A stretch of DNA of 64,000 nucleotides from sequence record NC_055709.1, one strand, 5' to 3'. Within the stretch, counting starts at the first letter, position 1; each line of letters opens with the position of its first letter. The translations under genes were made by a program, and so were the position numbers. This stretch comes from Escherichia phage phiE142. Of this stretch, positions 15,541 through 46,349 are shown in pieces. The notes beneath the pieces are model-generated. The model was not told where the DNA came from. It ran no database searches and worked only from the letters and a program-made list of their open reading frames with translations.

Positions 15541-16641
15541 TTACGCTGTGAAGATTTTATCCCACATCGCAACAACTGCATCTCGGTTATACTTCTTCCA
15601 TACTGCTTCAGCACGTTTAACTCGAGCTTCGTACGTGTCAGTGAATTCTAATACAGCTTTTGTGTAAAGCGCAACTACTTCTTTCTTAGGAGTAGAGGAA
15701 TCAATTTCTACACGCACAGTATCTGGGTCATATTCGAATGTCGCATGCGGATAATCCTTAAAAACTAACTGAATTACAGGGACACCTTTAGAAATGGCTT
15801 CAATAGAACTATTCTCTACCGTACCTGTGTCAGGACACGTATTAATAAGTGCTTTAGCTGTTTTAAGACGTTCCATAATTTCACTGTGTGGAGCATCAAT
15901 AATAACAGGATACTTAGCCGGTGGTGCCCATTTGCTTGGACAATAACCAATACCATTTTCGCCTAGTGCTTTAATCGCTTCAAGAGCAACATCAGTACGA
16001 CGCATTTTAGTGTCATAACGTTGTGCACTAATAATCAGATCAGTCGCCGGAAGAACTTCAGGTTTCTCATTCAAACAAATAACCGGATAATCTTCGGCTT
16101 CAAACAACGGATTTGCTCGCCAATAATCATAATCAATTTTGTCAGTCAGACCTGAAGTCATATAACAATATTTGCGTTCAAATTCACGGAAGGCTTTAGT
16201 AGGAGCATAACTCTTACCACCGTTCTTATGAATTTGAATAGTCTGGTCCCAAATTTGAACAATGCCACGAGATACCGGTTCAAATGGTGTTGCCATAAAA
16301 TTCTTATGAACTTTAGAGAGGCCCGCGTCTTTAATTGCCTGAACAGTTAGTTTGGTCGGTTCCATTGTAACAACGAAATCGTACTCATTAATGCCGGCTA
16401 GTTCAACAATCTTACGAGCCATAGTATAACTCATACCTAGACTGAATTTAGTCAGATGACCAACAGGATGATGATTAACCTTCCAATCACCAAATGTGTC
16501 ATTATCAAAACCGATATAATCAATATCGGCACCGATAGAAACTAAATATTTCAACACATTTAAATGTACTGCTTCAAGACCACCTTGTACACGTTCAGGA
16601 TTAAATGGGACTGCACGAGATGGGATAAACATAACTTTCAT
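15541..16641 (-). CDS. GT-B fold glycosyltransferase (GT4-like), candidate DNA sugar transferase
   Basis: 366 aa; N-terminal MKVMFIPSR...GGLEAVHLNVLKYL and C-terminal ENSSIEAISKGVPVIQ resemble GT4 donor-binding motifs; located between rIIA.1 and gene 39. Confidence 0.7.
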   Translation of the reverse strand: MKVMFIPSRAVPFNPERVQGGLEAVHLNVLKYLVSIGADIDYIGFDNDTFGDWKVNHHPVGHLTKFSLGMSYTMARKIVELAGINEYDFVVTMEPTKLTVQAIKDAGLSKVHKNFMATPFEPVSRGIVQIWDQTIQIHKNGGKSYAPTKAFREFERKYCYMTSGLTDKIDYDYWRANPLFEAEDYPVICLNEKPEVLPATDLIISAQRYDTKMRRTDVALEAIKALGENGIGYCPSKWAPPAKYPVIIDAPHSEIMERLKTAKALINTCPDTGTVENSSIEAISKGVPVIQLVFKDYPHATFEYDPDTVRVEIDSSTPKKEVVALYTKAVLEFTDTYEARVKRAEAVWKKYNRDAVVAMWDKIFTA

Positions 16642-16650
16642 AATTAAGCC

Positions 16651-16685
16651 TTATTAAAATTAAAATGAAGCTCCCGAAGGAGCTT
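16651..16685 (-). terminator. Terminator-like hairpin
   Basis: Minus strand AAGCTCCTTCGGGAGCTT followed by CATTTTAATTTTAAT, overlapping the HNH gene stop. Confidence 0.5.
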
Positions 16686-17496
16686 AGGACATCCAACACA
16701 TTTTATAACCTTTGCAGGTTCTGTTAGGATTATTTAATGCTTTCAATATATTAGAAGACCCTATACCTAAATACTCCCTTAATTCATAAAGATAGTTAAA
16801 ATCAATAGTTTCACCTGTTTTTACACTTGTGATTCTTATAGGCCTTCTTTCATATTTAGATTTATACAACTCTCTAGTCTTAGCTTTAGTTTCTTCTGAC
16901 CTAGGAGTGTATGGTTTAAATCCTTTTGTTTTAAATGTTTCCATTCTTGATTTAGTTATTTTATCCTGATGTTCTTTTGTTTTTACAGGTGCTTTTCGCC
17001 CATTCTCCCAAGATAACTTGTTGGCCTGTATTATTTTATCTATTGCTTCTTGCGTATGAGTTTTACCATAAAATGGATTTAATTCGCCTATACGTTGTGA
17101 AGCAATATGTGACATTAATTCTCTTGTTGCTTTAGTATGTTTTTTACCTTTAAATGGGTTGCCATTTTTAGCAATCCATTCTTTCATAAATCTAGAGTGC
17201 TCTTTAGAGAATTCTTGTTTAAGCCAATCATAATCTCTAGAATTTCTAGCTCCTATGTAAAAAGCTCTAATAGCCATAAGCATAGAACGGTTCTTATGAA
17301 TTTTATAAAGCAATAAATGGGCGATAAAATGCTCTCTAGGGGTCATTTTAACTAGATTTGATTTAGCATTACTCCCGCCCATAGATTTAGGCAAAATATG
17401 GTGAGTTTCAGTATAATTAGGAATAGTGCTGCGGTTTTTAGCCGCAGCGATAAGTTTATCATAAATTTTACGATAATTCATTATCCTAGCATCCAA
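16684..17496 (-). CDS. HNH homing endonuclease with NUMOD3 repeats
   Basis: ETHHILPKSMGGSNAKSNLVKMTPREHFIAH HNH motif plus two NPF.GK.HT....L repeats; overlaps the end of gene 39. Confidence 0.8.
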   Translation of the reverse strand: MDARIMNYRKIYDKLIAAAKNRSTIPNYTETHHILPKSMGGSNAKSNLVKMTPREHFIAHLLLYKIHKNRSMLMAIRAFYIGARNSRDYDWLKQEFSKEHSRFMKEWIAKNGNPFKGKKHTKATRELMSHIASQRIGELNPFYGKTHTQEAIDKIIQANKLSWENGRKAPVKTKEHQDKITKSRMETFKTKGFKPYTPRSEETKAKTRELYKSKYERRPIRITSVKTGETIDFNYLYELREYLGIGSSNILKALNNPNRTCKGYKMCWMS

Positions 17497-35803: not shown

Positions 35804-36947
35804 GGTCGTTTTCTATATCTGCTGCAGATGGAGCATCAGAAGTTTTAACCGGAACTTTAGTTGTTGCTTTGCAATTAATAAGGTCATTAACAGCGTCATC
35901 AACTTCTTTAATAGAAGAGATAGCACCTAGTTTATATTTAGTTTCAATTGCGTCACGAAAAGGTTTGTGTTTAAACAACGGACCCCAGAATTCTACACAA
36001 TCAGTAGCTTTAGCACGCCACGATTTCTCTTCACGAATCATTTCACCTGTTTCTTCGTCAAGGAATTCACGAGCATACCAACCAGCTTTAGGCTTAACAA
36101 CAAATCCAATTTCAGTTGCCATTTCTAACAAGCCACTGAATGGATCAATACCACCATCAAAATTAACTGTGATTGGGAAAGTAGATTTCTCTTTAACTGT
36201 ACGAGATTTTTCTGCTTTCAACGTGAAGTCATAACCGGTCAATTCTGTACCTTCTTTAACCTGACGTTTAGAGATAAAGAATACAGTGTTAGCAGAGTAA
36301 AGAATACCTGTACCACCACCCATAATCTCTTTAGGATATAGTCCGCCGATTTCCATTGCTGTATGGTTGATTGCAACACATGGAATATCTTTAATAGTCA
36401 GATACGGGGTCACAATACGGAAAAGAGATTTAAGTGCCTTAGCACGAGACATATCACCTACGACTTTCTCGTTCAACGCATCTTCGGTTTCTTTCTTAGA
36501 TGCAGTATTACCGATTGAATCGATAAAGATAATAACTTTATCACCGCGTTCAATTGCATCAAGCTGATTAGTCATATCAACTTTAAGTTGTTCGACAGAT
36601 TGAATCGGAGTATGAACTACACGGTCTAAATCAACACCCATTGAACGAAAATAAGATTCTGAAGCACCAAATTCTGAGTCATAGAACAAACAGATTGCAT
36701 CTTTATATTTCTTCATATAAGCTGCAACCATAGTTAGTCCAAACAATGTTTTAAAATGTTTAGAAGGTGCAGCAAAAATAGTCAAGCCTGATTGCAATCC
36801 TGCATTCAGAGCACCACCTAGTGCAATATTCAACATCGGAATACGAGTAGGGACTTCATCACGATTATTAAACAGCTTAGACTTAGTCAAGTCTGCAGTC
36901 ATTTTAGAAGTAGAAGCTTTAATCAGACGAGATTTTAAATCAGACAT
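35775..36947 (-). CDS. uvsX: UvsX recombinase (RecA-like)
   Basis: 390 aa; MSDLKSRLIKASTSKMTADL... and RecA core match T4 UvsX. Confidence 0.92.
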   Translation of the reverse strand: MSDLKSRLIKASTSKMTADLTKSKLFNNRDEVPTRIPMLNIALGGALNAGLQSGLTIFAAPSKHFKTLFGLTMVAAYMKKYKDAICLFYDSEFGASESYFRSMGVDLDRVVHTPIQSVEQLKVDMTNQLDAIERGDKVIIFIDSIGNTASKKETEDALNEKVVGDMSRAKALKSLFRIVTPYLTIKDIPCVAINHTAMEIGGLYPKEIMGGGTGILYSANTVFFISKRQVKEGTELTGYDFTLKAEKSRTVKEKSTFPITVNFDGGIDPFSGLLEMATEIGFVVKPKAGWYAREFLDEETGEMIREEKSWRAKATDCVEFWGPLFKHKPFRDAIETKYKLGAISSIKEVDDAVNDLINCKATTKVPVKTSDAPSAADIENDLDEMEDFDE

Positions 36948-37046
36948 TGTATTTTTCCATAGGCATCATTATATTTTACTCATGTTTAAAAGATAAGATG
37001 ATTATATACTAATGATTATACAGCATTTAAAACTTTAAACAGGCTC

Positions 37047-37595
37047 TTAACGAGCCCATTTGATGATTTCTGTAATCAAATCATTACGTTCGCTTGCATT
37101 AAATCCTATAACTTTGTTAGCACCATCATGATTAAGTAATTGATACGTTTGGATTTTGTTATGAATTGCAAACTCTTCAAAATGTGAAATGACTGTATTA
37201 AAACCGAATGAAGACAAAGTAATAAGGTCGTCTTCAAAACTTTCAGTCATTTCGTTACGTGTTAAAATAATTGTGAACACGTCATGGTTTTGGCAAAGAC
37301 GAACATAATCCTGCTCATAAACATCAAGAACCGAGTCAGCATCTTGTCGAATACGTCCATAAACCCAGTTACTAATATATCCACGGTCTAACAGATAAAT
37401 CTTAGTAGGGTCTAAATAATTCAACATCGTTTCGAAACAGCCAACTTCATTTCGAGACTTAACATCGAAACGTCCATCAACTGTTCGTTTAGGGAAATCA
37501 ATCTTTACATATCTTTCACTAATTTCCATTATGTCATTAATGAAAGTTGTTTTACCAGCATTATCCGGGCCATCTACTAAAATAATTTTAGCCAT
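37047..37595 (-). CDS. P-loop kinase-fold protein (NMP/sugar kinase-like)
   Basis: Walker A ILVDGPDNAGKTT at N-terminus, 182 aa; occupies part of the T4 beta-gt slot. Confidence 0.55.
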   Translation of the reverse strand: MAKIILVDGPDNAGKTTFINDIMEISERYVKIDFPKRTVDGRFDVKSRNEVGCFETMLNYLDPTKIYLLDRGYISNWVYGRIRQDADSVLDVYEQDYVRLCQNHDVFTIILTRNEMTESFEDDLITLSSFGFNTVISHFEEFAIHNKIQTYQLLNHDGANKVIGFNASERNDLITEIIKWAR

Positions 37596-37596
37596 T

Positions 37597-38496
37597 TTAT
37601 TCCTCGATTACGACATCTTCGTATTTAGGTATATTATACGGCGAAGAAATTAAAGCATTAAAGTAGATGAACTCACCAAGACCTGGATGGAATACTTCTT
37701 CAGGATTTTCGAAATATTGAATCTTCGGACGTCCTTTAAGAATTTGGTAGTACTCAGTTTTAGTTGGTTTAAAAATTCTAATCAGCGCTTCTTCAGGATA
37801 CTTATTTCTGTCGAAGCTATTATTTGGATCGGTTATATAAAGCGGTTGACCTAATTGAATTGCACATTCAACCACTTGTTCAAAATGATAACACGGATCA
37901 CTAATTCGAAATGGATGAAAAATACCATCTACATGAATAGGAGCCAAATCACCTACAAGACGCTGCATGATGGAAGGACGTATAACTTTCTGCGTTACGA
38001 TAATCTTATTATCATCTGCGCCAGCGTTAACCAGCACTTCCTTTTGACGTTTATTCAACACAGTTGTTTGGATTGAACGATTAACCGACAACATGTCGGT
38101 TTTTAAGAATTCGTCAATATAAAAACGTGGTTTATTAGGGTCTGCAGTGATATTGAAATTGAATTCTACATCAAAAGCGCCGTCATATCCAGTGATATCT
38201 GTGATTAGAAAATCACAATCATAATAAGCAATTAATGAATCAACCACAAATTCATTTTCAGACCAGAAATATTTACGGGTGTTATACGCGTTATCTTTAT
38301 ACCATAATGGAACAAACTTAAATTCTGGAAAAAGACGTTCGCATTCTTTAATATCAGATGCATTACGTGGATATGTAATCACATCACCCGGATTAGCACG
38401 GTGCAAATGAAGTTGGAAGTTGCCATCCTTAAGGATAGCATACTGTCCAGTTTCATAAGACCGCATACTCAAGATAGGTACGCGGAAAATAGCCAT
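37597..38496 (-). CDS. Hypothetical protein (299 aa) in the beta-gt slot
   Basis: No recognisable motif; translationally coupled to flanking genes. Confidence 0.5.
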   Translation of the reverse strand: MAIFRVPILSMRSYETGQYAILKDGNFQLHLHRANPGDVITYPRNASDIKECERLFPEFKFVPLWYKDNAYNTRKYFWSENEFVVDSLIAYYDCDFLITDITGYDGAFDVEFNFNITADPNKPRFYIDEFLKTDMLSVNRSIQTTVLNKRQKEVLVNAGADDNKIIVTQKVIRPSIMQRLVGDLAPIHVDGIFHPFRISDPCYHFEQVVECAIQLGQPLYITDPNNSFDRNKYPEEALIRIFKPTKTEYYQILKGRPKIQYFENPEEVFHPGLGEFIYFNALISSPYNIPKYEDVVIEE

Positions 38497-39212
38497 TAGT
38501 CAAGGAATCCTTTAACATAATCAAAATCACGTTCAAACACATGGGCACTTACCATGGTATGAGTATAATCACCAACTTCTACACCGCATTCGTTAGCGAT
38601 ATAATGAAGTAATTTTCCTTGGAGATAAAAATCCAACTGCATAACAACAGCACAGTTCTGAGAACGCATATGACAGTGGGTATAAAGCTTACCATCACGA
38701 ATATAATAAGTCACTGAGTCAGTACATGGATATTCAAGCGTTTCATCCGAATCAAGCAAAGCCTGATCAGAACTTTCTAGAATTTGGAACACAACTCTTC
38801 GAGAGTTAGGCTTCTCTTTAAGTTCTTTTAGAAGAGCTGGTAATTGGGCCGCAATGCGAGGACCATAGAAAGTGTTGAAGTTCGCCGGCAAAACATCTGA
38901 TTTTGGTTTAGAAATAAATTTAGCGACATTAGGATATGCCTTAAACGCTTCTTCTGCGTTGGTACCACCAGAAATCATAAACTTCCAGAAGTCTTCGGCA
39001 TATTCATAAGAGATGCGGTTAATACGTGGGTCGGTCATTTTGAATGATGATGGAGTGTCAACAACTACTGTCATAGACCCAATTTCATTACAACGTCCAA
39101 TACGAGAATCAGTTACGAATTCCGGGTTTTCTAAAATTTCACGATTGACTGCTTTAAATGCGGTTTGAAAATCTGCGGCTTTGATATATTTCATTGTGTT
39201 ATGTTTTCCCAT
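38496..39212 (-). CDS. 42: dCMP hydroxymethylase gp42-like (thymidylate synthase fold)
   Basis: PCTDSVTYYIRDGKL...HMRSQN block parallels T4 gp42 CTNTVQYLIRDKK...NMRSND; 238 aa. Confidence 0.65.
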   Translation of the reverse strand: MGKHNTMKYIKAADFQTAFKAVNREILENPEFVTDSRIGRCNEIGSMTVVVDTPSSFKMTDPRINRISYEYAEDFWKFMISGGTNAEEAFKAYPNVAKFISKPKSDVLPANFNTFYGPRIAAQLPALLKELKEKPNSRRVVFQILESSDQALLDSDETLEYPCTDSVTYYIRDGKLYTHCHMRSQNCAVVMQLDFYLQGKLLHYIANECGVEVGDYTHTMVSAHVFERDFDYVKGFLD

Positions 39213-39254
39213 GTTTACCTCAATACAATTTATTATATACTCAATTCGTAAAGC

Positions 39255-39494
39255 TTATTTGAATTTCTTGACAATGTTGATATAACGTAAAGCTTCAGCA
39301 TCGATACTTCCAAGAACACTATGAAGAAATGCATCAGCGTAGTATTCCAATTGAACAGGTTCTTTAATCACTTTAGCCGCTTTAGTTTCAAAAAGGCCCA
39401 TCAGGGCCTTTTTAAGAATTTGTTCATTAGTGTTCAGTTTCATAGTCAAAATCTCTTCATTAAGTTGGTGGTTAAAAGTTTTTCTAGAAATCAT
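39255..39494 (-). CDS. Hypothetical protein (79 aa)
   Basis: ORF only. Confidence 0.45.
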   Translation of the reverse strand: MISRKTFNHQLNEEILTMKLNTNEQILKKALMGLFETKAAKVIKEPVQLEYYADAFLHSVLGSIDAEALRYINIVKKFK

Positions 39495-40666
39495 TCCGGG
39501 TATCTCAAAGCGTCATCAGAGTTAGTTATATCAATAATAGATATAGAGTTTTCTGCTAACCCGTTTTTAGATAATTGACGTTTATAATATCTTTCACAAT
39601 ATGTACACGTCGTCCCGCAGATTTCATTAGCACAATCGAAATCTGGATGTCTGAACCACCTTTTTTCTAAAAAGCCATCTAACAAAGAGGTTTCAATATT
39701 TACTGTATGTGAAAACTCAGTCTCATTTTCAAGAGTGAAAATAGTCTCTAAAGGCTTCCACAGTTCTAACAAATTACCTTCAAACTTTTCAGAAGCGTAT
39801 GCTTCAAGAACTTTCAAAATGTAGTCTGTGCTACCTGTACGTCCTGAAACTTTGAATTGAGTGATACCAATATCATTATAAAGTTTCAAATCTTGAGGAC
39901 GAACAAAACGAGTTCTCAACCAGTTAAATGGGTCTGTATCACGAGCTTTAATACAGTGCTGCATAGGATATCCGTTTAAGGATTTAGCATCATCAGCGGT
40001 AACATCAGTACTATGGAAAATATAGCAAGAGTCACGATAGCTACAATGTGTTGTATACCCTTTACCAGCATTAGAACAGAACTCATTTACAAGAACTTCA
40101 AATATTATATTGTTCTTATTGCAAAACTCTGCTGCACGCTTCAGGAAAGAAACTGAACGGTTCTTATGAATTCCACAGCAGACCTTTTTGATATTATACT
40201 GGTCATGCAAGTATTTGATTTGAGTTACAGCATCGACATGTAGAATTGTTGAAACTTCAATCTCAATGTCTTTATTGACTTCACGAACAATTTCCATAAC
40301 AACAGGGTTAGCGATAGTAATACGCCATACGCCTATTGACCAAAGATACTGAACATAATCCTGAATAGCTTTCTTCTTCCACTCAACTAGTTCTCTTTTT
40401 GAACCAGGATTTATCGTGTTGAGTGTATAGTTAAAGCAAATACCTAATTCGTTACAACGTTTAACGTAATCTTCTAACATCTTTTTGTCAACGTCAGGAA
40501 GCCTAAAATCAGGTCTGGCTGCTACAAAAGCCATTTCTCTTGTAGAGCCATATACTTCGTTTATCAAGCTATTAGGATAAGTTTTATTGAGCTCTACGAT
40601 TTTATCGAGAAGAGCTAAATCAAAATTCGTTCCGATTTTAAAAGTATTCATTTTTTTGCATCTCAC
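39491..40666 (-). CDS. Cys-cluster protein (391 aa), possible Fe-S/metal enzyme
   Basis: C-terminal CANEICGTTCTYC (Cx4Cx3Cx2C) plus further Cys; no confident family assignment. Confidence 0.5.
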   Translation of the reverse strand: MRCKKMNTFKIGTNFDLALLDKIVELNKTYPNSLINEVYGSTREMAFVAARPDFRLPDVDKKMLEDYVKRCNELGICFNYTLNTINPGSKRELVEWKKKAIQDYVQYLWSIGVWRITIANPVVMEIVREVNKDIEIEVSTILHVDAVTQIKYLHDQYNIKKVCCGIHKNRSVSFLKRAAEFCNKNNIIFEVLVNEFCSNAGKGYTTHCSYRDSCYIFHSTDVTADDAKSLNGYPMQHCIKARDTDPFNWLRTRFVRPQDLKLYNDIGITQFKVSGRTGSTDYILKVLEAYASEKFEGNLLELWKPLETIFTLENETEFSHTVNIETSLLDGFLEKRWFRHPDFDCANEICGTTCTYCERYYKRQLSKNGLAENSISIIDITNSDDALRYPE

Positions 40667-40708
40667 GTTAATTGATGCGATGGTTTTTTGCAGGTCTTAC
40701 TTAAATTA

Positions 40709-41110
40709 TTATAGATTCGGTTTATATGATTTAAATGTTTCGAATTCGCCTTTATTCATAAGAGCTTTGAATTCGTCAGGACGCATAGCTTTGTCGTCGA
40801 TAATCCAATCATATACTGGTTTATGTGTTAGCAAATTATGGTACTTCAAGCCAATGTTTGCCAAGTTCTGAATCAGACTTGGGAGAATGTCAATTGCTAT
40901 ACGACCAGGACCTACTGACTTCATACCGCGAGCAGTGTAAAGCGTTATGGTATGCCCTGCATCATACAGGGCATTAATGGCAGTCACCATTTCGACGTCC
41001 GGTTTGAAGTTCACGTAATCACGATTGTTATTCCACTCTGTTATACAATCATCGACGTCAAAACAAAGATTAAGCATGTTTTCTACACGGTGCATTAGAT
41101 TCGTTCCCAT
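40709..41110 (-). CDS. HAD-like phosphatase
   Basis: 133 aa; N-terminal FDVDDCIT (DxD-type motif I, non-canonical), TARG motif II-like, WIIDDKA motif IV-like. Confidence 0.5.
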   Translation of the reverse strand: MGTNLMHRVENMLNLCFDVDDCITEWNNNRDYVNFKPDVEMVTAINALYDAGHTITLYTARGMKSVGPGRIAIDILPSLIQNLANIGLKYHNLLTHKPVYDWIIDDKAMRPDEFKALMNKGEFETFKSYKPNL

Positions 41111-42780
41111 TGATGAGTGATATCGCCACCGATTGGACGATAGGAAACACCAGTTTCTTTATCAGTTAGTACCCATTTACCAGGATTTTTTGTAATCAGA
41201 GTAGCCGTTACAGGTTCTGCTACGTCATAACTAATAGAGCCATCTTGAAGTACACGGCCCATGTTACGTAATTGCTTAGTCAGAAGTTCCATACCTTTAT
41301 AATATGCGGCCACCGCTTTAAGTGGATTATTCTTGAAATAACCACCTAATGCAATCCAGATAATTGCCACTGCCAAATGATGATACTCGTTAAACGAACT
41401 CATCTTTCCATATTTGTAAACTAATGGATTGATGTTAATAGTCACATTACAAGTTGTTTCATCAATAGTAAACTGGCCCCAGGTCGGATTAGCGTTGAAT
41501 TCATCATAACCTGAAACAGCATAAAGCACTTTAGCTTCATCATACAATTTTGGCCCGTAAATCTTGGTTTCGCCAAAATATCCACGAGGGTCGATAAACT
41601 TGACTTCGCCGTTATCAGTAATCATAGTATTACTGAAGTTCGGGTCACCGTGAATAACAGAGTACTGTCCCTGAGAACGGTTATGATAACGAATAAGATG
41701 TTCTAAAGCTTGTTTCAACATTGGCTTCAGACGTCCAATCTTAGTGTAGTTCACGTGTGTGATTTTACCAAATGAATCAATCAATGGCTGAATGCTTTCA
41801 CAACGATCAATAACTTTCGTATAGAACTCTTTAGTGAAATCACGACGAACAGTTTCAGGACTTACAAAATAAGTGTCTGTGCTGAATTTCAGTGCATCTA
41901 AAATTGCATCAACAATTTGTGGACGAGCAAGACTTGATTTGGATTTAATATATTCAAATGCCGGCTTACCTTTAATACGTTCCATTTCAAAATTATTTTC
42001 ATTTACCGAAACTAACTGAGGAACCGAATCTGATTTCACTTTCAAATACCATGAAATCTCATCTTTTTGAAGAGCTCGACCTTGTTCGGTTAACGCGAAT
42101 TTAGTTACAGTTTCTTCGCCAATTTCAACTGCATTAAAACTACGATTAAGTTCACGAACTTCATGAGCTTTTTCAAGTTTAGGCATATCACCTAAATCAA
42201 TTAGATTCATAAGCTCTGATTTATTGAATGCGCTGCTGTAAAGGAATTCTACGAAATCACGTCCTTTGCAGTATTCATGAATTTCCTCATCAGTAGAACC
42301 CATATAGAATTCCCAGTCTTTGAACTGATAAATTCCTACAACATTACCGCCTGTTGCACCTACATTAGTGATATTTTCACCGTCGAAATTATATCGACAT
42401 TCGTCACCCTTAACATAGATTGCGTTAACATTCCAAGACCATGAACCAAAATCAGGAATAATATCGCACCAGTTAACAACTACGTTATGCCTGTCTAAAT
42501 CTTTGTGTAATTTAGCAAGAGCATAAGCAGAACCATACGCTTCATCAACTGTACGAATAGTCACATTGAACCCTTCTTGCTCACAATAAGCTCGAACGGT
42601 TTCAGCAAATTTTGAATGAACTACTACAATAATTTCATCTGCGCCAAGGTCAGAATAAATTGTATACAAATTGCTCAGAATAGTGTCTTGTTTATAGTTA
42701 ACAAGCACCTTAGGAATATGATGCGTTATTGGATACAAACGAGTTGCCAGTCCAGCACCAAGAATAACAGCTTTTTTCAT
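41095..42780 (-). CDS. Bifunctional sugar-1-phosphate nucleotidyltransferase / APH-type kinase
   Basis: N-terminus KAVILGAGLATRLYPIT (RmlA/GlmU-type); C-terminus VIHGDPNFSNTMI...FIDPRG (aminoglycoside/choline kinase catalytic loop). Confidence 0.7.
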   Translation of the reverse strand: MKKAVILGAGLATRLYPITHHIPKVLVNYKQDTILSNLYTIYSDLGADEIIVVVHSKFAETVRAYCEQEGFNVTIRTVDEAYGSAYALAKLHKDLDRHNVVVNWCDIIPDFGSWSWNVNAIYVKGDECRYNFDGENITNVGATGGNVVGIYQFKDWEFYMGSTDEEIHEYCKGRDFVEFLYSSAFNKSELMNLIDLGDMPKLEKAHEVRELNRSFNAVEIGEETVTKFALTEQGRALQKDEISWYLKVKSDSVPQLVSVNENNFEMERIKGKPAFEYIKSKSSLARPQIVDAILDALKFSTDTYFVSPETVRRDFTKEFYTKVIDRCESIQPLIDSFGKITHVNYTKIGRLKPMLKQALEHLIRYHNRSQGQYSVIHGDPNFSNTMITDNGEVKFIDPRGYFGETKIYGPKLYDEAKVLYAVSGYDEFNANPTWGQFTIDETTCNVTININPLVYKYGKMSSFNEYHHLAVAIIWIALGGYFKNNPLKAVAAYYKGMELLTKQLRNMGRVLQDGSISYDVAEPVTATLITKNPGKWVLTDKETGVSYRPIGGDITHQWERI

Positions 42781-42961
42781 GTTGTGGTCCTCATTGGTAA
42801 GTAGGAGTATTGTACACTATTCTAGTTAAAGCATTCATACTTTGCTTGTAGTCCAATCATAATCCATCCAATTACAAGTGTTGGAATCATTACCGGAGCC
42901 GTTAAGCTCCAGTAGATAGTCATGACAAGCATCAATAGTAAAAGTCCTATTGTTATTGCTT

Positions 42962-43597
42962 TCATTGTTCGCCTCGTAACATGGCACCTAGTGCACCGCC
43001 TGGATGGAACTTAAGGAAATCATTAGAGGTAAATCCACGTTCAGACGAAAGGTTGATAGCAAACGTATCGATAAGCGCTAACAACAATGTAGTGGACATT
43101 GTCGGAGCTAAAGAGTTCTCGTCAACTTCTACCGCGATACCAGTACAGAACGTATAATCAAAAAGAGCTTCGTATTCTTGTGGAATGTCAGGGTTACAAT
43201 GTAACAGAATCTGTTTAACCTGAGGACGAATCATACGAAGATGTTTAGCAACACCTATCATTTCTTCAGTCTTACCAGAACGACTAATATGAATCAACAC
43301 ATCATTAGGCGCAATGAATCCTGCATCACCGTGAGAATAATGCCCAGTGTTCAAGTACATACTCGGGATACCGAGTGAAGCAAATGTCTCAGAAGCTTTA
43401 GTTGCGATATTAGCGTTCTTACCAACACCTGTAATAATTACACGACTTTCATAATTACTCAGTCCTGGGCGTCGAAGAGTTTCTAGAATAGCATTATAAC
43501 GAGCAGGGTTTTGACTAATTACTTTGGCCATAGCGGCCAAAGAAGAAGCTTGTTTTATGATTGCGTCAATAGCGATAGTAATAGGAGTAGTTTTCAT
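42962..43597 (-). CDS. SIS-domain sugar-phosphate isomerase (KdsD/GutQ-like arabinose-5-phosphate isomerase)
   Basis: ITGVGKNANIATKASETFASLGIPS...HGD...LIHISRSGKTEE SIS motifs; 211 aa, no CBS domains. Confidence 0.7.
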   Translation of the reverse strand: MKTTPITIAIDAIIKQASSLAAMAKVISQNPARYNAILETLRRPGLSNYESRVIITGVGKNANIATKASETFASLGIPSMYLNTGHYSHGDAGFIAPNDVLIHISRSGKTEEMIGVAKHLRMIRPQVKQILLHCNPDIPQEYEALFDYTFCTGIAVEVDENSLAPTMSTTLLLALIDTFAINLSSERGFTSNDFLKFHPGGALGAMLRGEQ

Positions 43598-43637
43598 ATT
43601 TCTCTCATTTAATTAGTTTACCGTCCATGGCATTATA

Positions 43638-46349
43638 TCAAAAATCGAACATATCGAATAGAGATGCTTTCTTCTCGTAATCGAGTTTCGCTGCTGATGT
43701 GAATCCTTCAAGTGGTTTAATAAATGTCTTCTCAAGGAGAACAGTGTAGTCCATCCAATGAAGTACGTCGTCTTTAATTAAATCTGTGATTTCAGTACCA
43801 GAAGGCCATGCGATACATTTATCACCGAATGGGTTTCCTTCACGTAAAGGCAGAACATATACTTTTTCACCTTCTACAACTTGTGGAGCATCAATATTAC
43901 CTTTGATAGCCCGGTTATACGTCAGAATTCCACGAATATGGAACGGACATTTGGGACCAGGGAATCCACCTACATCATATTTAGCAATGTTATTCGCAGA
44001 AGATACCGACGCGATGCTAATATAATTCAATTGACGGAATTCTTTTTCAAACTCTTTAAAATATTCTTGTAATGATTCTTCACCTTCTTGAAGCATACGA
44101 CGAATACATTCTTTAAGAGCTTTCTGTACCGCTTTAGGAGTTGAAGATTTCTGTGTTTCGAGACCCATGATTTTGAGTTTAGGCTCAGCGTAACGAGTAC
44201 CTTCCATATCCCACACGTTTAATGCATAACGTTTCTTACCAGTCCAGAATCCGCCAATACCTTTAGAACCAAGCGGAGGACCAGCGATAGCTTCTCGGTC
44301 CATGAACATTAAGTGTTGTTTATTGTTCATGTATTCACACATTTCACGGAAACCTTTATCAATAGCTGGTTCCATACGTTCACGTGCGAACTTATCTAAG
44401 AAGTCTACCCAATGGTTGGTATCACGGAATTTAGATTCACCAACCTTATCGATAATTTTATCAGCAGATACGTAAATAGAGTCTGTATCACCATAAAGAA
44501 CGAAAGCTTCACCTTCTGTACCACAAACTTCATTCAGATATTCATTAACTTTACGTTCAATCCACTGTAAAGCCATTTGCCCGAATGTTGTGATTGCAGT
44601 AGCATTACGCAAATCGTAATAACGGAACCATACGTTACCAAGTGCACCATAAAGCGAGTTGATAAGCAATTTACGGTTAATTTGTGCAGTCATACCTGCA
44701 ACTTCAGTACGTTGAGCTCTAAACAACATTTCATTAAGAGATTTAGCAGACAACTTTTTAATCTTTTCTTTAATCTCATCGCTGAAGTCGAAACGATAAT
44801 CAACATCTAATGGTTCGTCAACAGAAAGATTAGGATTATGCAATGCCTCTTTAATTATTTCACCATTACGTTGAGCTGCAAGCATGTAACCTTTATGTTC
44901 TTTACGCTGATTAAAGACCTTAGTGATTTCAGTTGGAACTACACCGTCACGGTCTTTATAATACATCATGCCGTTAGGAGAGCAACTGTACACATCTGAA
45001 GGACGTTCAGCGATTGCGTTAATATAATCATGCAGTGGAGCTACTTTAAACGTTCCTGCTATTGTTTCCGGGCTAATATTCACTTGGCGAATAATACTTG
45101 GATACAGAGACGTAAGGTCGAAACTCATTACATATTTGTATCGATTTGGAATAGGTTCCTTAACAAAAGCGCCAGGATAAGGTTGAACCGGGTGAGAACG
45201 ACCTTGTGGAATCACCTTGTTTTGTTCTTTAAGGCTATTAAAAATAATAGCATCCCAAGTTTTAATTGGACTGAACACAGATTGAATCTGAATTTTAGCA
45301 TAATAACCCATGTCCAAGCTCAAGTTGATGAACTGACGCTTAGAATCAATTTGCAATACACGATACACGTCGATAATGTTATAAGAAATATATCGTTGGT
45401 GATTGCTTTCACGAAGCTTAGAAATAGGGCCGTCATATTTCAGTTTACCAATGTTCAATTCAAATTCTGAAATGTAATCCAGAGAATACGACGGTTGATT
45501 GGTAAAAGAGAATTTTTTGTAAAGGTCAATGTAATCAAGAACAGAGATACCGAACAATGTAATGATTTCACGAGAACCATACATGTTTTCGATAACTTTA
45601 ACACGAGTTTTACGATGTGGTGATAAACGTTTCGCAGTAGATTCGCCAAAAATATTCTTGATTCGGTTATACACATATGGAATATCAAATGACTCAACGT
45701 TCCATCCAGTCAAAATGACAGGAGTTTTCTGTTGCCAGAAGTTGAGATATTCCATCAACAATTCTTTTTCGTTATCGAACGGCATATAAATGATTTTATC
45801 GATAATTTCGGACGGAACTTCATCACCACCTTGTTCTTGAAGCTTAGCAGCGATTTCAATAGACCATTCTTCCACATTACCATATGGAGAATTCAATAGA
45901 TCAAATACGTAGAACCTGTCGTCAATTGAGTCATAATGGGTGATAGCATCAATCGGATGTTTTGCTTGTGACGGCTCAGGGAATCCATCCGGAGATGTTA
46001 CTTCGATGTCGAAGTTAGCCACACGAATTTTTGTATGGTCGTATTTGATTTCATAGTTATAAGTGTCAGACAAATACGCCAATTTGAAATCGTCCATGCC
46101 AAGTGCTTCAAGACCGATATCTTCCATGCGTTTAATCCATTGAGACGCATCACGCATATTAGCGAACAACTTACGAGTACACGGCTTACCGTAGATATCG
46201 AAATATTTCGTAGCCTGACTTTCTGGACAATGAGCAAACAGTGATGGTTTATATTCTACTTCACGAGTACGTTCACGGCCATTAGAATCGATGTAACGTT
46301 CAAAAATTGAATCACCAATCTGTTCAACCGTTAAGTAAAATTCTTTCAT
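43638..46349 (-). CDS. 43: DNA polymerase gp43 (family B), RB69-type
   Basis: 903 aa; sequence matches RB69 gp43 as I recall it from structural literature, including exo motifs FDIEV and YNIIDV and YGDTDS. Confidence 0.95.
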   Translation of the reverse strand: MKEFYLTVEQIGDSIFERYIDSNGRERTREVEYKPSLFAHCPESQATKYFDIYGKPCTRKLFANMRDASQWIKRMEDIGLEALGMDDFKLAYLSDTYNYEIKYDHTKIRVANFDIEVTSPDGFPEPSQAKHPIDAITHYDSIDDRFYVFDLLNSPYGNVEEWSIEIAAKLQEQGGDEVPSEIIDKIIYMPFDNEKELLMEYLNFWQQKTPVILTGWNVESFDIPYVYNRIKNIFGESTAKRLSPHRKTRVKVIENMYGSREIITLFGISVLDYIDLYKKFSFTNQPSYSLDYISEFELNIGKLKYDGPISKLRESNHQRYISYNIIDVYRVLQIDSKRQFINLSLDMGYYAKIQIQSVFSPIKTWDAIIFNSLKEQNKVIPQGRSHPVQPYPGAFVKEPIPNRYKYVMSFDLTSLYPSIIRQVNISPETIAGTFKVAPLHDYINAIAERPSDVYSCSPNGMMYYKDRDGVVPTEITKVFNQRKEHKGYMLAAQRNGEIIKEALHNPNLSVDEPLDVDYRFDFSDEIKEKIKKLSAKSLNEMLFRAQRTEVAGMTAQINRKLLINSLYGALGNVWFRYYDLRNATAITTFGQMALQWIERKVNEYLNEVCGTEGEAFVLYGDTDSIYVSADKIIDKVGESKFRDTNHWVDFLDKFARERMEPAIDKGFREMCEYMNNKQHLMFMDREAIAGPPLGSKGIGGFWTGKKRYALNVWDMEGTRYAEPKLKIMGLETQKSSTPKAVQKALKECIRRMLQEGEESLQEYFKEFEKEFRQLNYISIASVSSANNIAKYDVGGFPGPKCPFHIRGILTYNRAIKGNIDAPQVVEGEKVYVLPLREGNPFGDKCIAWPSGTEITDLIKDDVLHWMDYTVLLEKTFIKPLEGFTSAAKLDYEKKASLFDMFDF

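What the first reader, a model, noticed from the sequence alone, without database searches (positions are those of the whole stretch)
41095..42780. Fused sugar-1-phosphate nucleotidyltransferase and APH-type kinase in one 561-aa protein
The N-terminal about 230 aa carry the RmlA/GlmU signature (G.G.ATRLYPIT.H.PK) and the C-terminal half carries the protein-kinase-like HGD....N catalytic loop and DxxG of aminoglycoside/choline kinases. This fusion would phosphorylate a free sugar at the anomeric position and immediately activate it as an NDP-sugar, a salvage-type logic unusual for a lytic phage.
Basis: partly seen in the sequence, partly recalled or inferred. Interest (0 to 1): 0.6.

Follow-up and report, generated by a model that had tools for sequence, protein, structure and literature searches.

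The report
Phage UDP-arabinose kinase/nucleotidyltransferase fusion (known)
This gene is a real two-enzyme fusion that helps an RB69-like phage make activated arabinose to decorate the cytosines of its DNA, but the family and its pathway were already described and tested in 2018-2026, so it is an ordinary member of a known system.

Summary

The window is a Mosigvirus (RB69-like). The protein is identical to phiE142 YP_010088535.1 and 98% identical to RB69ORF053c over its first 218 aa. It is therefore the orthologue of RB69 gp52:53, which Thomas et al. 2018 and Lee et al. 2026 assigned to UDP-arabinose synthesis and equate with AfhE of phage HY126.

AfhE is reported to be a D-arabinose-5-phosphate 1-kinase plus UDP-D-arabinose pyrophosphorylase. 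The neighbouring genes complete that pathway: a SIS arabinose-5-P isomerase, a HAD phosphatase, a ThyA-like 5-hydroxy-dCMP synthase and glycosyltransferases.

The [quoted passage not shown] logic is not the published route, which runs Ru5P -> Ara5P -> Ara-1,5-P2 -> Ara-1-P -> UDP-Araf. The gene occurs in at least 372 phage records. Already known; low interest.

The parts
41095..42780 (-). 561-aa bifunctional gene, orthologue of RB69 gp52:53 and homologue of HY126 AfhE: D-arabinose-5-P 1-kinase / UDP-D-arabinofuranose pyrophosphorylase
   Evidence: ORF. Identical to phiE142 YP_010088535.1 and in the same 90% cluster as RB69ORF053c. 98% identical to RB69ORF053c over aa 1-218. PHROG 4098 end to end, E 1e-294.
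42166..42780 (-). N-terminal domain (aa 1-~205): sugar-1-phosphate nucleotidyltransferase, RmlA/LicC/MurU/HddC-like
41260..42153 (-). Kinase domain (aa ~210-507): protein-kinase-like small-molecule kinase of the APH/choline-kinase type
41098..41259 (-). C-terminal ~54-aa extension (TKNPGKWVLTDxETGxxYRP...W), of unknown role
   Evidence: Conserved only in the T4-like-phage clade and absent from the more distant homologues. Model pLDDT is 72-84 here against >90 elsewhere.
42962..43597 (-). SIS-domain arabinose-5-phosphate isomerase (RB69 gp55 equivalent): Ru5P -> Ara5P
   Evidence: PF01380, E 4.8e-10. KpsF/GutQ at E 5e-32 and KdsD at E 2e-30. PHROG 5670 'arabinose 5-phosphate isomerase'.
40709..41110 (-). 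133-aa HAD-type phosphatase (RB69 gp51 / AfhF equivalent): Ara-1,5-P2 -> Ara-1-P. Its start overlaps the stop of the 561-aa gene by 16 nt.
   Evidence: TIGR01689 EcbF-BcbF capsule phosphatase, E 4.6e-13. Overlap seen. Role taken from PMC13326640.
38496..39212 (-). ThyA-like enzyme (RB69 gp48 equivalent): 5-hydroxy-dCMP synthase, which makes the acceptor base
   Evidence: PF00303, E 2.3e-15. The activity of RB69 gp48 was shown experimentally in PMC13326640.
37597..38496 (-). 299-aa putative DNA arabinosyltransferase 1 (RB69 gp46:47 equivalent)
   Evidence: PHROG 3891 end to end; no Pfam hit. Assigned by position and by PMC13326640 Table 1.
37047..37595 (-). 182-aa P-loop nucleotide kinase (RB69 gp45 equivalent)
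   Evidence: PHROG 761 'thymidylate kinase', E 1.6e-45. The Bas46 annotation reads 'putative thymidylate kinase'.
39491..40651 (-). U32-family protein (RB69 gp50 equivalent); role in the cluster unresolved
   Evidence: PF01136 Peptidase_U32, E 7.5e-11. PHROG 5757 aligns from residue 5. Bas46 annotates a 1161-nt CDS, so the start is probably the ATG at 40651.
15541..16641 (-). 366-aa ORF between rIIA and the topoisomerase II large subunit: probable second DNA arabinosyltransferase (RB69 ORF003c equivalent)
   Evidence: Position. Present Mosigvirus-wide at ~2.5-3.6 kb of genomes that start at rIIA. [quoted passage not shown] I did not align it directly to the RB69 ORF003c sequence.

Best explanation
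The gene encodes the Mosigvirus orthologue of RB69 gp52:53 (the AfhE family), a bifunctional enzyme in the phage's own pathway to UDP-D-arabinofuranose, the donor for arabinosylating 5-hydroxycytosine in phage DNA.

Proposed route:
1. The phage SIS isomerase (42962..43597) converts host ribulose-5-P to D-arabinose-5-P.
2. The C-terminal APH/choline-kinase-type domain of this protein uses ATP to phosphorylate the anomeric C1-OH, giving arabinofuranose-1,5-bisphosphate.
3. The small HAD phosphatase encoded immediately downstream, with overlapping stop and start codons (40709..41110), removes the 5-phosphate.
4. The N-terminal RmlA/LicC-like domain condenses Ara-1-P with UTP to UDP-Araf.
5. Glycosyltransferases (37597..38496 and probably 15541..16641) transfer arabinose to 5-hydroxycytosine, whose precursor is made by the ThyA-like enzyme (38496..39212).

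Shown here: the two-domain architecture, the intact catalytic residues of both domains, orthology to RB69 gp52:53, and conserved gene context.

Taken from the literature: arabinosylated 5-hydroxy-dC in RB69 and Mosigvirus DNA, and the AfhE and AfhF activities in HY126.

Inferred: that this particular protein has the same substrates, the same order of steps and the same UTP specificity.
For: - Architecture and catalytic residues.
- Orthology: identical to the phiE142 protein and in the same 90% cluster as RB69ORF053c; 98% identity over aa 1-218; 95-99% nucleotide identity to about 150 Mosigvirus genomes.
- Existing annotation: BASEL phage Bas46 labels this gene 'putative enzyme involved in UDP-arabinose biosynthesis'.
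- Context in the window: SIS A5P isomerase, HAD phosphatase, ThyA-like gene and glycosyltransferase.
- Context elsewhere: the same module (SIS, GT2, this fusion, HAD, ThyA-like, EndoIV-like) sits on a 350-kb phage-like contig.
- Rosetta-stone fusions: proteins of 912-955 aa (P0084, P0088, P0089, P0091, P0092) carry HAD, SIS, nucleotidyltransferase and kinase in one chain. This ties the four activities to one pathway.
- Literature: PMC6024577 proposed ORF53_52c for UDP-arabinose. PMC13326640 models gp52:53 as nucleotidyltransferase plus kinase and reports that HY126 AfhE is a D-arabinose-5-phosphate kinase / UDP-D-arabinose pyrophosphorylase and AfhF a Mg2+-dependent phosphatase. PMC13390438 finds 5-ara-dC and 5-ara-ara-dC in a Mosigvirus. 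PMC12838424 shows that the 54%-identical Thanatos TH1_060 is essential.
Against: - No biochemistry exists for this exact protein or for RB69 gp52:53 in the papers I could read.
- The primary AfhE paper (He et al. 2026, Nat Chem Biol) and Mahler et al. 2025 are not in the library. The order of steps therefore rests on a secondary summary.
- Table 1 of PMC13326640 still describes the alternative order: phosphatase first, then a kinase acting on free arabinose.
- The purified Thanatos homologue showed no pyrophosphorylase activity with xylose-1-P and any of five NTPs. That fits arabinose specificity but is not positive evidence.
- Nucleotide (UTP) specificity cannot be read from the sequence.
Confidence: 0.75

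Rival explanations
1. The first reader's version, which is also the order listed in Table 1 of PMC13326640. The HAD phosphatase first makes free D-arabinose from Ara5P, or exogenous arabinose is taken up. The kinase domain then phosphorylates the free sugar at C1, and the N-terminal domain converts Ara-1-P directly to NDP-arabinose. This is an AmgK/MurU-like or FKP-like two-step salvage within one polypeptide.
For: - Table 1 of PMC13326640 lists 'dephosphorylates Araf5P to Ara' and 'phosphorylates Ara to Araf1P'.
- Gene content alone fits either order.
Against: - The text of PMC13326640 reports that experiments on HY126 showed AfhE phosphorylates Araf5P to Araf1,5P2 and AfhF dephosphorylates the bisphosphate.
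- The HAD protein resembles heptose-1,7-bisphosphate phosphatase GmhB.
- Carrying a dedicated A5P isomerase argues for a phosphorylated route.
- The kinase domain has several invariant basic residues beyond the catalytic set (R326, R399, K417, K488) that could bind a 5-phosphate. This last point is inference only.
Confidence: 0.15
2. The enzyme activates a different substrate or nucleotide, for example another pentose, or a CDP/GDP/dTDP carrier, so the product is not UDP-D-arabinofuranose.
For: - Base specificity cannot be read from the sequence.
- The best structural neighbours use CTP (LicC), dTTP (RmlA), GTP (HddC) or UTP (MurU, GalU).
- PMC13326640 itself writes 'NDP-arabinose ... potentially UDP-arabinose' for RB69.
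Against: - Arabinose is the sugar found on Mosigvirus and RB69 DNA.
- AfhE is reported as a UDP-D-arabinose pyrophosphorylase.
- The Thanatos homologue did not use xylose-1-P.
- The structural neighbours of the cluster's glycosyltransferases mostly use UDP-sugars.
Confidence: 0.07
3. A LicC/LicA-type choline (or other amino-alcohol) kinase / cytidylyltransferase fusion unrelated to DNA modification.
For: - One metagenomic homologue is named 'choline kinase' by JGI (P0083).
- LicCA fusions with this domain order exist in Treponema (my own knowledge).
Against: - Identity to LicC or choline kinase is only 13-20%.
- The conserved neighbours are a sugar-phosphate isomerase, a ThyA-like enzyme and glycosyltransferases.
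- The Rosetta-stone fusions join it to SIS and HAD domains.
- Phage DNA carries arabinose, and AfhE biochemistry is reported.
Confidence: 0.02

Closest known systems
AfhE of Escherichia phage HY126; RB69 gp52:53 (ORF53_52c); Acinetobacter phage DLP3 gp82; Shewanella phage Thanatos TH1_060
   Same: Same family and same architecture of about 550-565 aa: nucleotidyltransferase N-terminal domain plus kinase C-terminal domain. Same neighbours: SIS isomerase, HAD phosphatase, ThyA-like enzyme and glycosyltransferases. The window protein is 98% identical to RB69ORF053c, about 57% identical to the homologues in Acinetobacter phages DLP1 and DLP2 (DLP3 gp82 itself was not compared) and 54% to TH1_060.
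   Different: Nothing of substance; this is the phiE142 allele. RB69's own record splits the gene in two through a sequencing error. Identity to HY126 AfhE itself could not be measured.
ADP-heptose pathway GmhA / HldE / GmhB, and the GDP-heptose variant GmhA / HddA / GmhB / HddC
   Same: Identical pathway logic. A SIS isomerase makes a sugar phosphate. A kinase adds the anomeric phosphate to give a bisphosphate. A HAD phosphatase removes the distal phosphate. A nucleotidyltransferase then makes the NDP-sugar. In HldE the kinase and transferase are likewise fused in one protein. HddC is the best profile match of the N-terminal domain in the PDB (E 1.5e-12).
   Different: The sugar is a heptose, not a pentose. 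The HldE kinase has a ribokinase/PfkB fold and its transferase a cytidylyltransferase fold; HddA is a GHMP kinase (my own knowledge). The kinase here has an APH/choline-kinase fold, so this is analogy rather than homology for that step.
AmgK - MurU (MurNAc/GlcNAc anomeric kinase plus MurNAc-1-P uridylyltransferase) of Pseudomonas
   Different: These are separate proteins. They act on a free sugar in true salvage, in consecutive steps with no phosphatase between. The sugars are hexosamines.
LicC / LicA (CTP:phosphocholine cytidylyltransferase and choline kinase) and LicCA fusions
   Different: The substrate is choline and the nucleotide is CTP. There is no sugar-phosphate context. Identity is only 13-20%.
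Bifunctional sugar-1-kinase / NDP-sugar pyrophosphorylases of salvage pathways: L-fucokinase/GDP-fucose pyrophosphorylase FKP, and Leishmania D-arabino-1-kinase/GDP-D-Arap pyrophosphorylase
   Same: One polypeptide carries an anomeric kinase and a pyrophosphorylase. The Leishmania enzyme even activates D-arabinose (my own knowledge).
   Different: The kinase has a GHMP fold. These enzymes take the free sugar, make a GDP carrier and the pyranose form, and have a eukaryotic or Bacteroides origin.

Membership tests
Sugar-1-phosphate nucleotidyltransferase (Pfam PF00483, RmlA/GlmU/LicC-like) | HMM match above the curated threshold | tested here: met
   PF00483 at 39.9 bits against a cut-off of 21.2; PF12804 at 30.8 against 27. 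31 of 38 homologues match.
Sugar-1-phosphate nucleotidyltransferase (Pfam PF00483, RmlA/GlmU/LicC-like) | N-terminal G-x-G-x-x-R-L loop plus conserved Lys (NTP binding), and acidic residues for Mg2+ | tested here: met
   G10, R14, L15, K24, D106, D195 and G197 are invariant in 38 sequences. Assigning these roles to them is by analogy with RmlA and LicC.
Sugar-1-phosphate nucleotidyltransferase (Pfam PF00483, RmlA/GlmU/LicC-like) | Rossmann-like nucleotidyltransferase fold | tested here: met
Sugar-1-phosphate nucleotidyltransferase (Pfam PF00483, RmlA/GlmU/LicC-like) | NTP + sugar-1-P -> NDP-sugar + PPi activity | not testable with these tools
   Reported for HY126 AfhE with UTP and Ara-1-P, second-hand.
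APH / choline-kinase-type small-molecule kinase (Pfam PF01636, protein-kinase-like fold) | HMM match above the curated threshold | tested here: not met
   This sequence gives only sub-threshold hits: Fructosamin_kin 17.2 bits against 22.4, EcKL 16.2 against 22, RIO1 16.2 against 22. However, 10 of 38 homologues match PF01636 at E <= 1e-3, best 6e-10.
APH / choline-kinase-type small-molecule kinase (Pfam PF01636, protein-kinase-like fold) | Catalytic loop H-x-D-x-x-x-x-N (Brenner motif) and Mg2+-binding Asp of the DFG-equivalent | tested here: met
   H377-G-D379-PNFS-N384 and I396-D397-P-R-G400 are invariant.
APH / choline-kinase-type small-molecule kinase (Pfam PF01636, protein-kinase-like fold) | ATP-anchoring Lys (beta3) and Glu (alphaC) in the N-lobe | tested here: met
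   K227 lies in strand 224-229 and E241 in helix 232-247; both are invariant. The role is assigned by position.
APH / choline-kinase-type small-molecule kinase (Pfam PF01636, protein-kinase-like fold) | Bilobal protein-kinase-like fold | tested here: met
AfhE / RB69 gp52:53 family (D-Ara5P 1-kinase / UDP-D-Araf pyrophosphorylase of ara-5hoC phages) | Orthology to RB69 gp52:53 | tested here: met
   Same 90% cluster as RB69ORF053c; 213 of 218 residues identical. Synteny between UvsX and gp43 as described in PMC6024577.
AfhE / RB69 gp52:53 family (D-Ara5P 1-kinase / UDP-D-Araf pyrophosphorylase of ara-5hoC phages) | Co-occurrence with an A5P isomerase, a HAD phosphatase, a ThyA-like 5hodCMP synthase and DNA glycosyltransferase(s) | tested here: met
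   All are present within 37047..43597. The same set is on a distant 350-kb contig.
AfhE / RB69 gp52:53 family (D-Ara5P 1-kinase / UDP-D-Araf pyrophosphorylase of ara-5hoC phages) | Sequence homology to the biochemically characterised HY126 AfhE | not testable with these tools
   The HY126 sequence is not in any collection reachable here. The taxon exists. PMC13326640 states that AfhE corresponds to gp52:53.
AfhE / RB69 gp52:53 family (D-Ara5P 1-kinase / UDP-D-Araf pyrophosphorylase of ara-5hoC phages) | Ara5P-dependent kinase activity and UDP-Araf formation; arabinosylated 5-hydroxy-dC in virion DNA | not testable with these tools
   From the literature only: RB69, NP, Bas46 and Bas47 DNA carry ara-5hoC.
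HldE (ADP-heptose bifunctional kinase/adenylyltransferase) | PfkB/ribokinase-fold kinase domain plus cytidylyltransferase-fold transferase domain | tested here: not met
   Neither Pfam, NCBIfam nor the fold searches return PfkB or HldE; the folds found are protein-kinase-like and RmlA-like. It works like HldE but is not a member.

The most novel reading that the evidence does not exclude
The family is not confined to phage DNA modification. On a contig that looks like a giant virus (MutS+HNH, RNA polymerase Rpb2 and Rpb10), and in a eukaryotic transcriptome, all four steps (HAD phosphatase, SIS isomerase, nucleotidyltransferase, kinase) are fused into a single polypeptide of about 930-955 aa, with no ThyA-like gene within 8 kb.

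Giant viruses of eukaryotes may therefore make NDP-D-arabinofuranose through the same chemistry and use it for something other than cytosine arabinosylation, for example virion glycans, or for a DNA modification not yet seen in eukaryotic viruses.

For the window gene itself, the only unexplained element is the C-terminal tail of about 54 aa, which is specific to the T4-like clade. It could dock the enzyme to the phosphatase or to the replication/dNTP complex.
Probability: 0.3. Interest if true: 0.45.

Novelty: already known. Interest (0 to 1): 0.15.

Why it matters
The enzyme supplies the sugar donor for arabinosyl-5-hydroxycytosine, a DNA hypermodification that shields RB69-like phages from restriction enzymes and CRISPR nucleases while exposing them to type IV systems. 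That matters for choosing therapeutic phages and for making UDP-D-arabinofuranose enzymatically.

The gene's role was proposed in 2018, annotated in the BASEL collection in 2021, modelled in 2025-26 and reportedly reconstituted in vitro for a homologue in 2026. This window adds no new biology, only another allele.

The practical value of this check is to correct database labels still attached to the locus: 'bifunctional protein GlmU', 'hypothetical protein', and 'phosphoheptose isomerase' for the neighbouring phosphatase.

Tried and rejected
- **Single-sequence Pfam and PDB searches for the kinase half.** These gave only sub-threshold or no hits. The question was settled with conservation and fold searches instead.
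- **Primary papers.** He et al. 2026 and Mahler et al. 2025 could not be fetched. A search for 'AfhE' or 'HY126' found only the citing paper.
- **A solved AfhE structure.** None is in the PDB copy by sequence or fold; the best identity is about 20%.
- **Promoter and terminator scan of 36900..43700.** It found no more sites than shuffled sequence (20 against 25.9 ± 5.6 promoter-like; 2 against 3.6 terminator-like), so I make no operon-boundary claim.
- **Cellular origin of the family.** A pattern-seeded scan of 185,579 species genomes returned only three loci, all MAG contigs, two of them of phage-like size (120 and 167 kb) and one only 5 kb. I dropped the idea of a bacterial polysaccharide-gene origin; the scan's sensitivity is limited.
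- **Pseudokinase reading of the C-terminal half.** Rejected, because every catalytic residue is invariant.
- **Choline-pathway (LicCA) reading.** Rejected on gene context (see rivals).
- **Direct BLASTP of the neighbouring U32 protein against E. coli RlhA.** It aligned only the 'D-x-G-x-x-x-F-K-x-x-G-R' signature (E 0.05), so the hydroxylase idea for that gene stays a hypothesis.
Full report
**Observation**

The three quoted motifs are present:
- G8-A-G10-L-A-T-R14-L-Y-P-I-T-H-H-I-P-K24
- H377-G-D379-P-N-F-S-N384
- D397-P-R-G400

A GAGG lies 8 nt upstream of the ATG. The stop of the ORF overlaps the start of the next gene by 16 nt.

**Which genome**

The flanking ORFs are UvsX, gp43 DNA polymerase, RegA and the clamp loader, so this is a T4-like phage. 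Megablast places the gene at 95-99.3% identity in about 150 Mosigvirus (RB69-like) genomes. The protein is identical to YP_010088535.1 of Escherichia phage phiE142. It shares a 90% cluster with RB69ORF053c, to which it is 98% identical over residues 1-218. RB69's record splits the gene into ORF052c and ORF053c through a sequencing error (PMC13326640).

**N-terminal half**

This half is a bona fide sugar-1-phosphate nucleotidyltransferase.
- PF00483 and PF12804 both pass their gathering scores.
- NCBIfam gives partial hits to archaeal GlmU, AglF, RmlA, MurU and HddC models.
- A profile of 38 homologues hits HddC (E 1.5e-12) and LicC (E 9e-12) in the PDB.
- G10, R14, K24, G83, D106 and the D195-x-G197-D198-x-x-K201 block are invariant.

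**C-terminal half**

On its own this half reaches only sub-threshold Pfam scores, so this part of the observation needed a real test. Three lines settle it.
1. Ten of 38 homologues match PF01636 (APH), with a best E of 6e-10.
2. The canonical kinase set is invariant down to 29% identity: beta3 Lys K227, alphaC Glu E241, catalytic loop H377-G-D379...N384, and Mg-binding D397.

The last ~54 residues form a lower-confidence tail that is conserved only in the T4-like clade.

**Gene context**

The cluster between UvsX and gp43 reads, in transcription order on the - strand:
- SIS arabinose-5-phosphate isomerase, 42962..43597 (KpsF/GutQ E 5e-32, KdsD E 2e-30)
- a 47-aa hydrophobic ORF
- the 561-aa gene
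- a 133-aa HAD phosphatase, 40709..41110 (TIGR01689, E 4.6e-13)
- a U32-family protein (PF01136, E 7.5e-11)
- a 79-aa ORF
- a ThyA-like enzyme (PF00303, E 2.3e-15)
- a 299-aa protein assigned as a glycosyltransferase
- a P-loop nucleotide kinase

The BASEL phage Bas46 already annotates the 561-aa gene as 'putative enzyme involved in UDP-arabinose biosynthesis'. A 366-aa ORF between rIIA and the topoisomerase (15541..16641) sits where the literature places the second arabinosyltransferase, RB69 ORF003c.

**Literature**

- Thomas et al. 2018 (PMC6024577) found arabinose on RB69 DNA. They proposed ORF53_52c and ORF055c, in this very module, as UDP-arabinose synthesis genes.
- Lee et al. 2026 (PMC13326640) showed that the base is 5-hydroxycytosine carrying one to three D-arabinofuranoses, and that RB69 gp48 is a 5-hydroxy-dCMP synthase. 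They modelled gp52:53 as a nucleotidyltransferase N-terminal domain plus a kinase C-terminal domain.
- Lee et al. also report, citing He et al. 2026 (Nat Chem Biol), that HY126 AfhE is a dual D-arabinose-5-phosphate kinase / UDP-D-arabinose pyrophosphorylase. AfhF is reported as a Mg2+-dependent phosphatase that converts Araf-1,5-P2 to Araf-1-P.
- A Mosigvirus in the Durham collection carries 5-ara-dC and 5-ara-ara-dC (PMC13390438).
- The 54%-identical Thanatos TH1_060 is essential for propagation. It did not make an NDP-sugar from xylose-1-P (PMC12838424).

**Mechanism**

The best-supported route is:
1. Ribulose-5-P -> Ara5P, by the SIS isomerase.
2. Ara5P -> Ara-1,5-P2, by the kinase domain of this protein.
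3. Ara-1,5-P2 -> Ara-1-P, by the HAD phosphatase.
4. Ara-1-P -> UDP-Araf, by the nucleotidyltransferase domain of this protein.
5. Transfer of arabinose to 5-hydroxycytosine in DNA.

This is the logic of nucleotide-heptose synthesis (GmhA / HldE / GmhB), built with a non-homologous kinase fold. That comparison rests on my own knowledge of those families, supported by the HddC match.

Independent support for linking the four activities comes from Rosetta-stone proteins of 912-955 aa that carry HAD, SIS, nucleotidyltransferase and kinase in one chain. Further support is a 350-kb phage-like contig with the same module: SIS, GT2, this fusion, HAD, ThyA-like and EndoIV-like.

Three points are inferred rather than shown for this protein: the kinase substrate, the order of the steps and the UTP specificity.

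The architecture, the anomeric kinase chemistry, the NDP-pentose product and the choice of arabinose are right. Three points are not supported by the published route or by the adjacent isomerase and phosphatase genes: phosphorylation of a free sugar, immediate hand-over between the two domains, and a salvage rationale.

The gene is also not unusual. tblastn finds it in 372 phage records, 362 of them near full length, from phages of Escherichia, Acinetobacter, Klebsiella, Vibrio, Serratia, Proteus, Yersinia, Shewanella and others.

The phosphatase-first version is still printed in Table 1 of PMC13326640. I keep it as a rival at about 0.15.

**Distribution**

A pattern-seeded scan of one genome per bacterial and archaeal species returned only three loci. 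All were MAG contigs; two are of phage-like size (120 and 167 kb) and the third is only 5 kb. As far as this limited scan shows, the family is essentially viral.

**Verdict**

The feature is an already known member of the AfhE / RB69 gp52:53 family, with low interest (0.15).

Side observations worth a note:
- the U32-family neighbour, whose family includes the O2-independent hydroxylases RlhA, TrhP and UbiU/V
- the four-domain fusions on a giant-virus-like contig
- the clade-specific C-terminal tail

Noticed in passing
window 39491..40666 (-), probable start 40651: The U32-family protein in the arabinosylation cluster (PF01136, E 7.5e-11) belongs to the family of RlhA (23S rRNA 5-hydroxycytidine), TrhP (tRNA 5-hydroxyuridine) and UbiU/V, which are O2-independent, prephenate-dependent hydroxylases (papers). 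It sits next to the flavin/O2-dependent ThyA-like 5-hydroxy-dCMP synthase, so it could be an anaerobic route to 5-hydroxycytosine for a gut phage. PMC13326640 lists it only as 'sugar or heterocycle reductase'. It carries a Cys-rich stretch (C-x10-C-x5-C ... C) in the region of the Pfam match. BLASTP against E. coli RlhA aligns only the DxGxxxFKxxGR signature.
   Followed up: partly
L002:8001-10781 (P0084; also P0088, P0089, P0091, P0092): Proteins of 912-955 aa fuse HAD, SIS, nucleotidyltransferase and kinase, the whole four-step pathway, in one chain. P0084 lies on a 103-kb contig beside MutS(I/III/V)+HNH, RNA polymerase Rpb2 and RNA_pol_N, which looks like a giant virus of eukaryotes. P0091 comes from a eukaryotic transcriptome set. 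No ThyA-like gene lies within 8 kb. The words 'giant virus' and 'fusion' do not occur in PMC13326640.
   Followed up: partly
L005:5135-11689 (350-kb JGI contig): A jumbo-phage-sized contig carries the same module in the order SIS, GT2, nucleotidyltransferase/kinase fusion (P0082, 35% identical), HAD (Hydrolase_3), ThyA-like, T4 EndoIV-like. The cytosine-arabinosylation cassette therefore seems to travel as a unit well outside Straboviridae-sized genomes.
   Followed up: partly
window 41098..41259 (-), aa 508-561 of the 561-aa protein: A C-terminal extension (TKNPGKWVLTDxETGxxYRP...W) is conserved in the T4-like-phage members and missing from the more distant homologues. It is modelled with lower confidence as short strands. 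Its function is unknown; it may be a docking element.
   Followed up: no
window 42822..42965 (-): A 47-aa strongly hydrophobic ORF (MKAITIGLLLLMLVMTIYWSLTAPVMIPTLVIGWIMIGLQAKYECFN) lies between the isomerase and the 561-aa gene. Its ATG overlaps the isomerase stop (ATGA). Bas46 annotates it as a hypothetical protein. A small membrane protein is unexpected in a cytosolic sugar-nucleotide cluster.
   Followed up: no
window 16684..17496 (-): A 270-aa HNH/NUMOD3 homing endonuclease (PHROG 655, E 1.6e-54; NUMOD3 E 5e-9) is inserted between the ORF003c-like glycosyltransferase and the topoisomerase II large subunit.
   Followed up: no
window 40709..42780 and 15541..16641; public records H1-H30, H111: Database labels for this locus are inconsistent and mostly wrong or empty. 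The 561-aa gene is labelled 'bifunctional protein GlmU', 'mannose-1-phosphate guanyltransferase' or 'hypothetical protein'. The HAD phosphatase is labelled 'phosphoheptose isomerase' in RefSeq and PHROGs. The ORF003c-like gene is labelled 'DNA alpha-glucosyltransferase'.
   Followed up: yes
L007, L008, L009 (genome-contig scan): Among one genome per species for 185,579 bacterial and archaeal species, only three loci encode a relative, all on MAG contigs (167 kb, 120 kb and 5 kb). The two large contigs are probably phage genomes binned into MAGs, labelled 'bacterium' and 'Candidatus Izemoplasma'.
   Followed up: no
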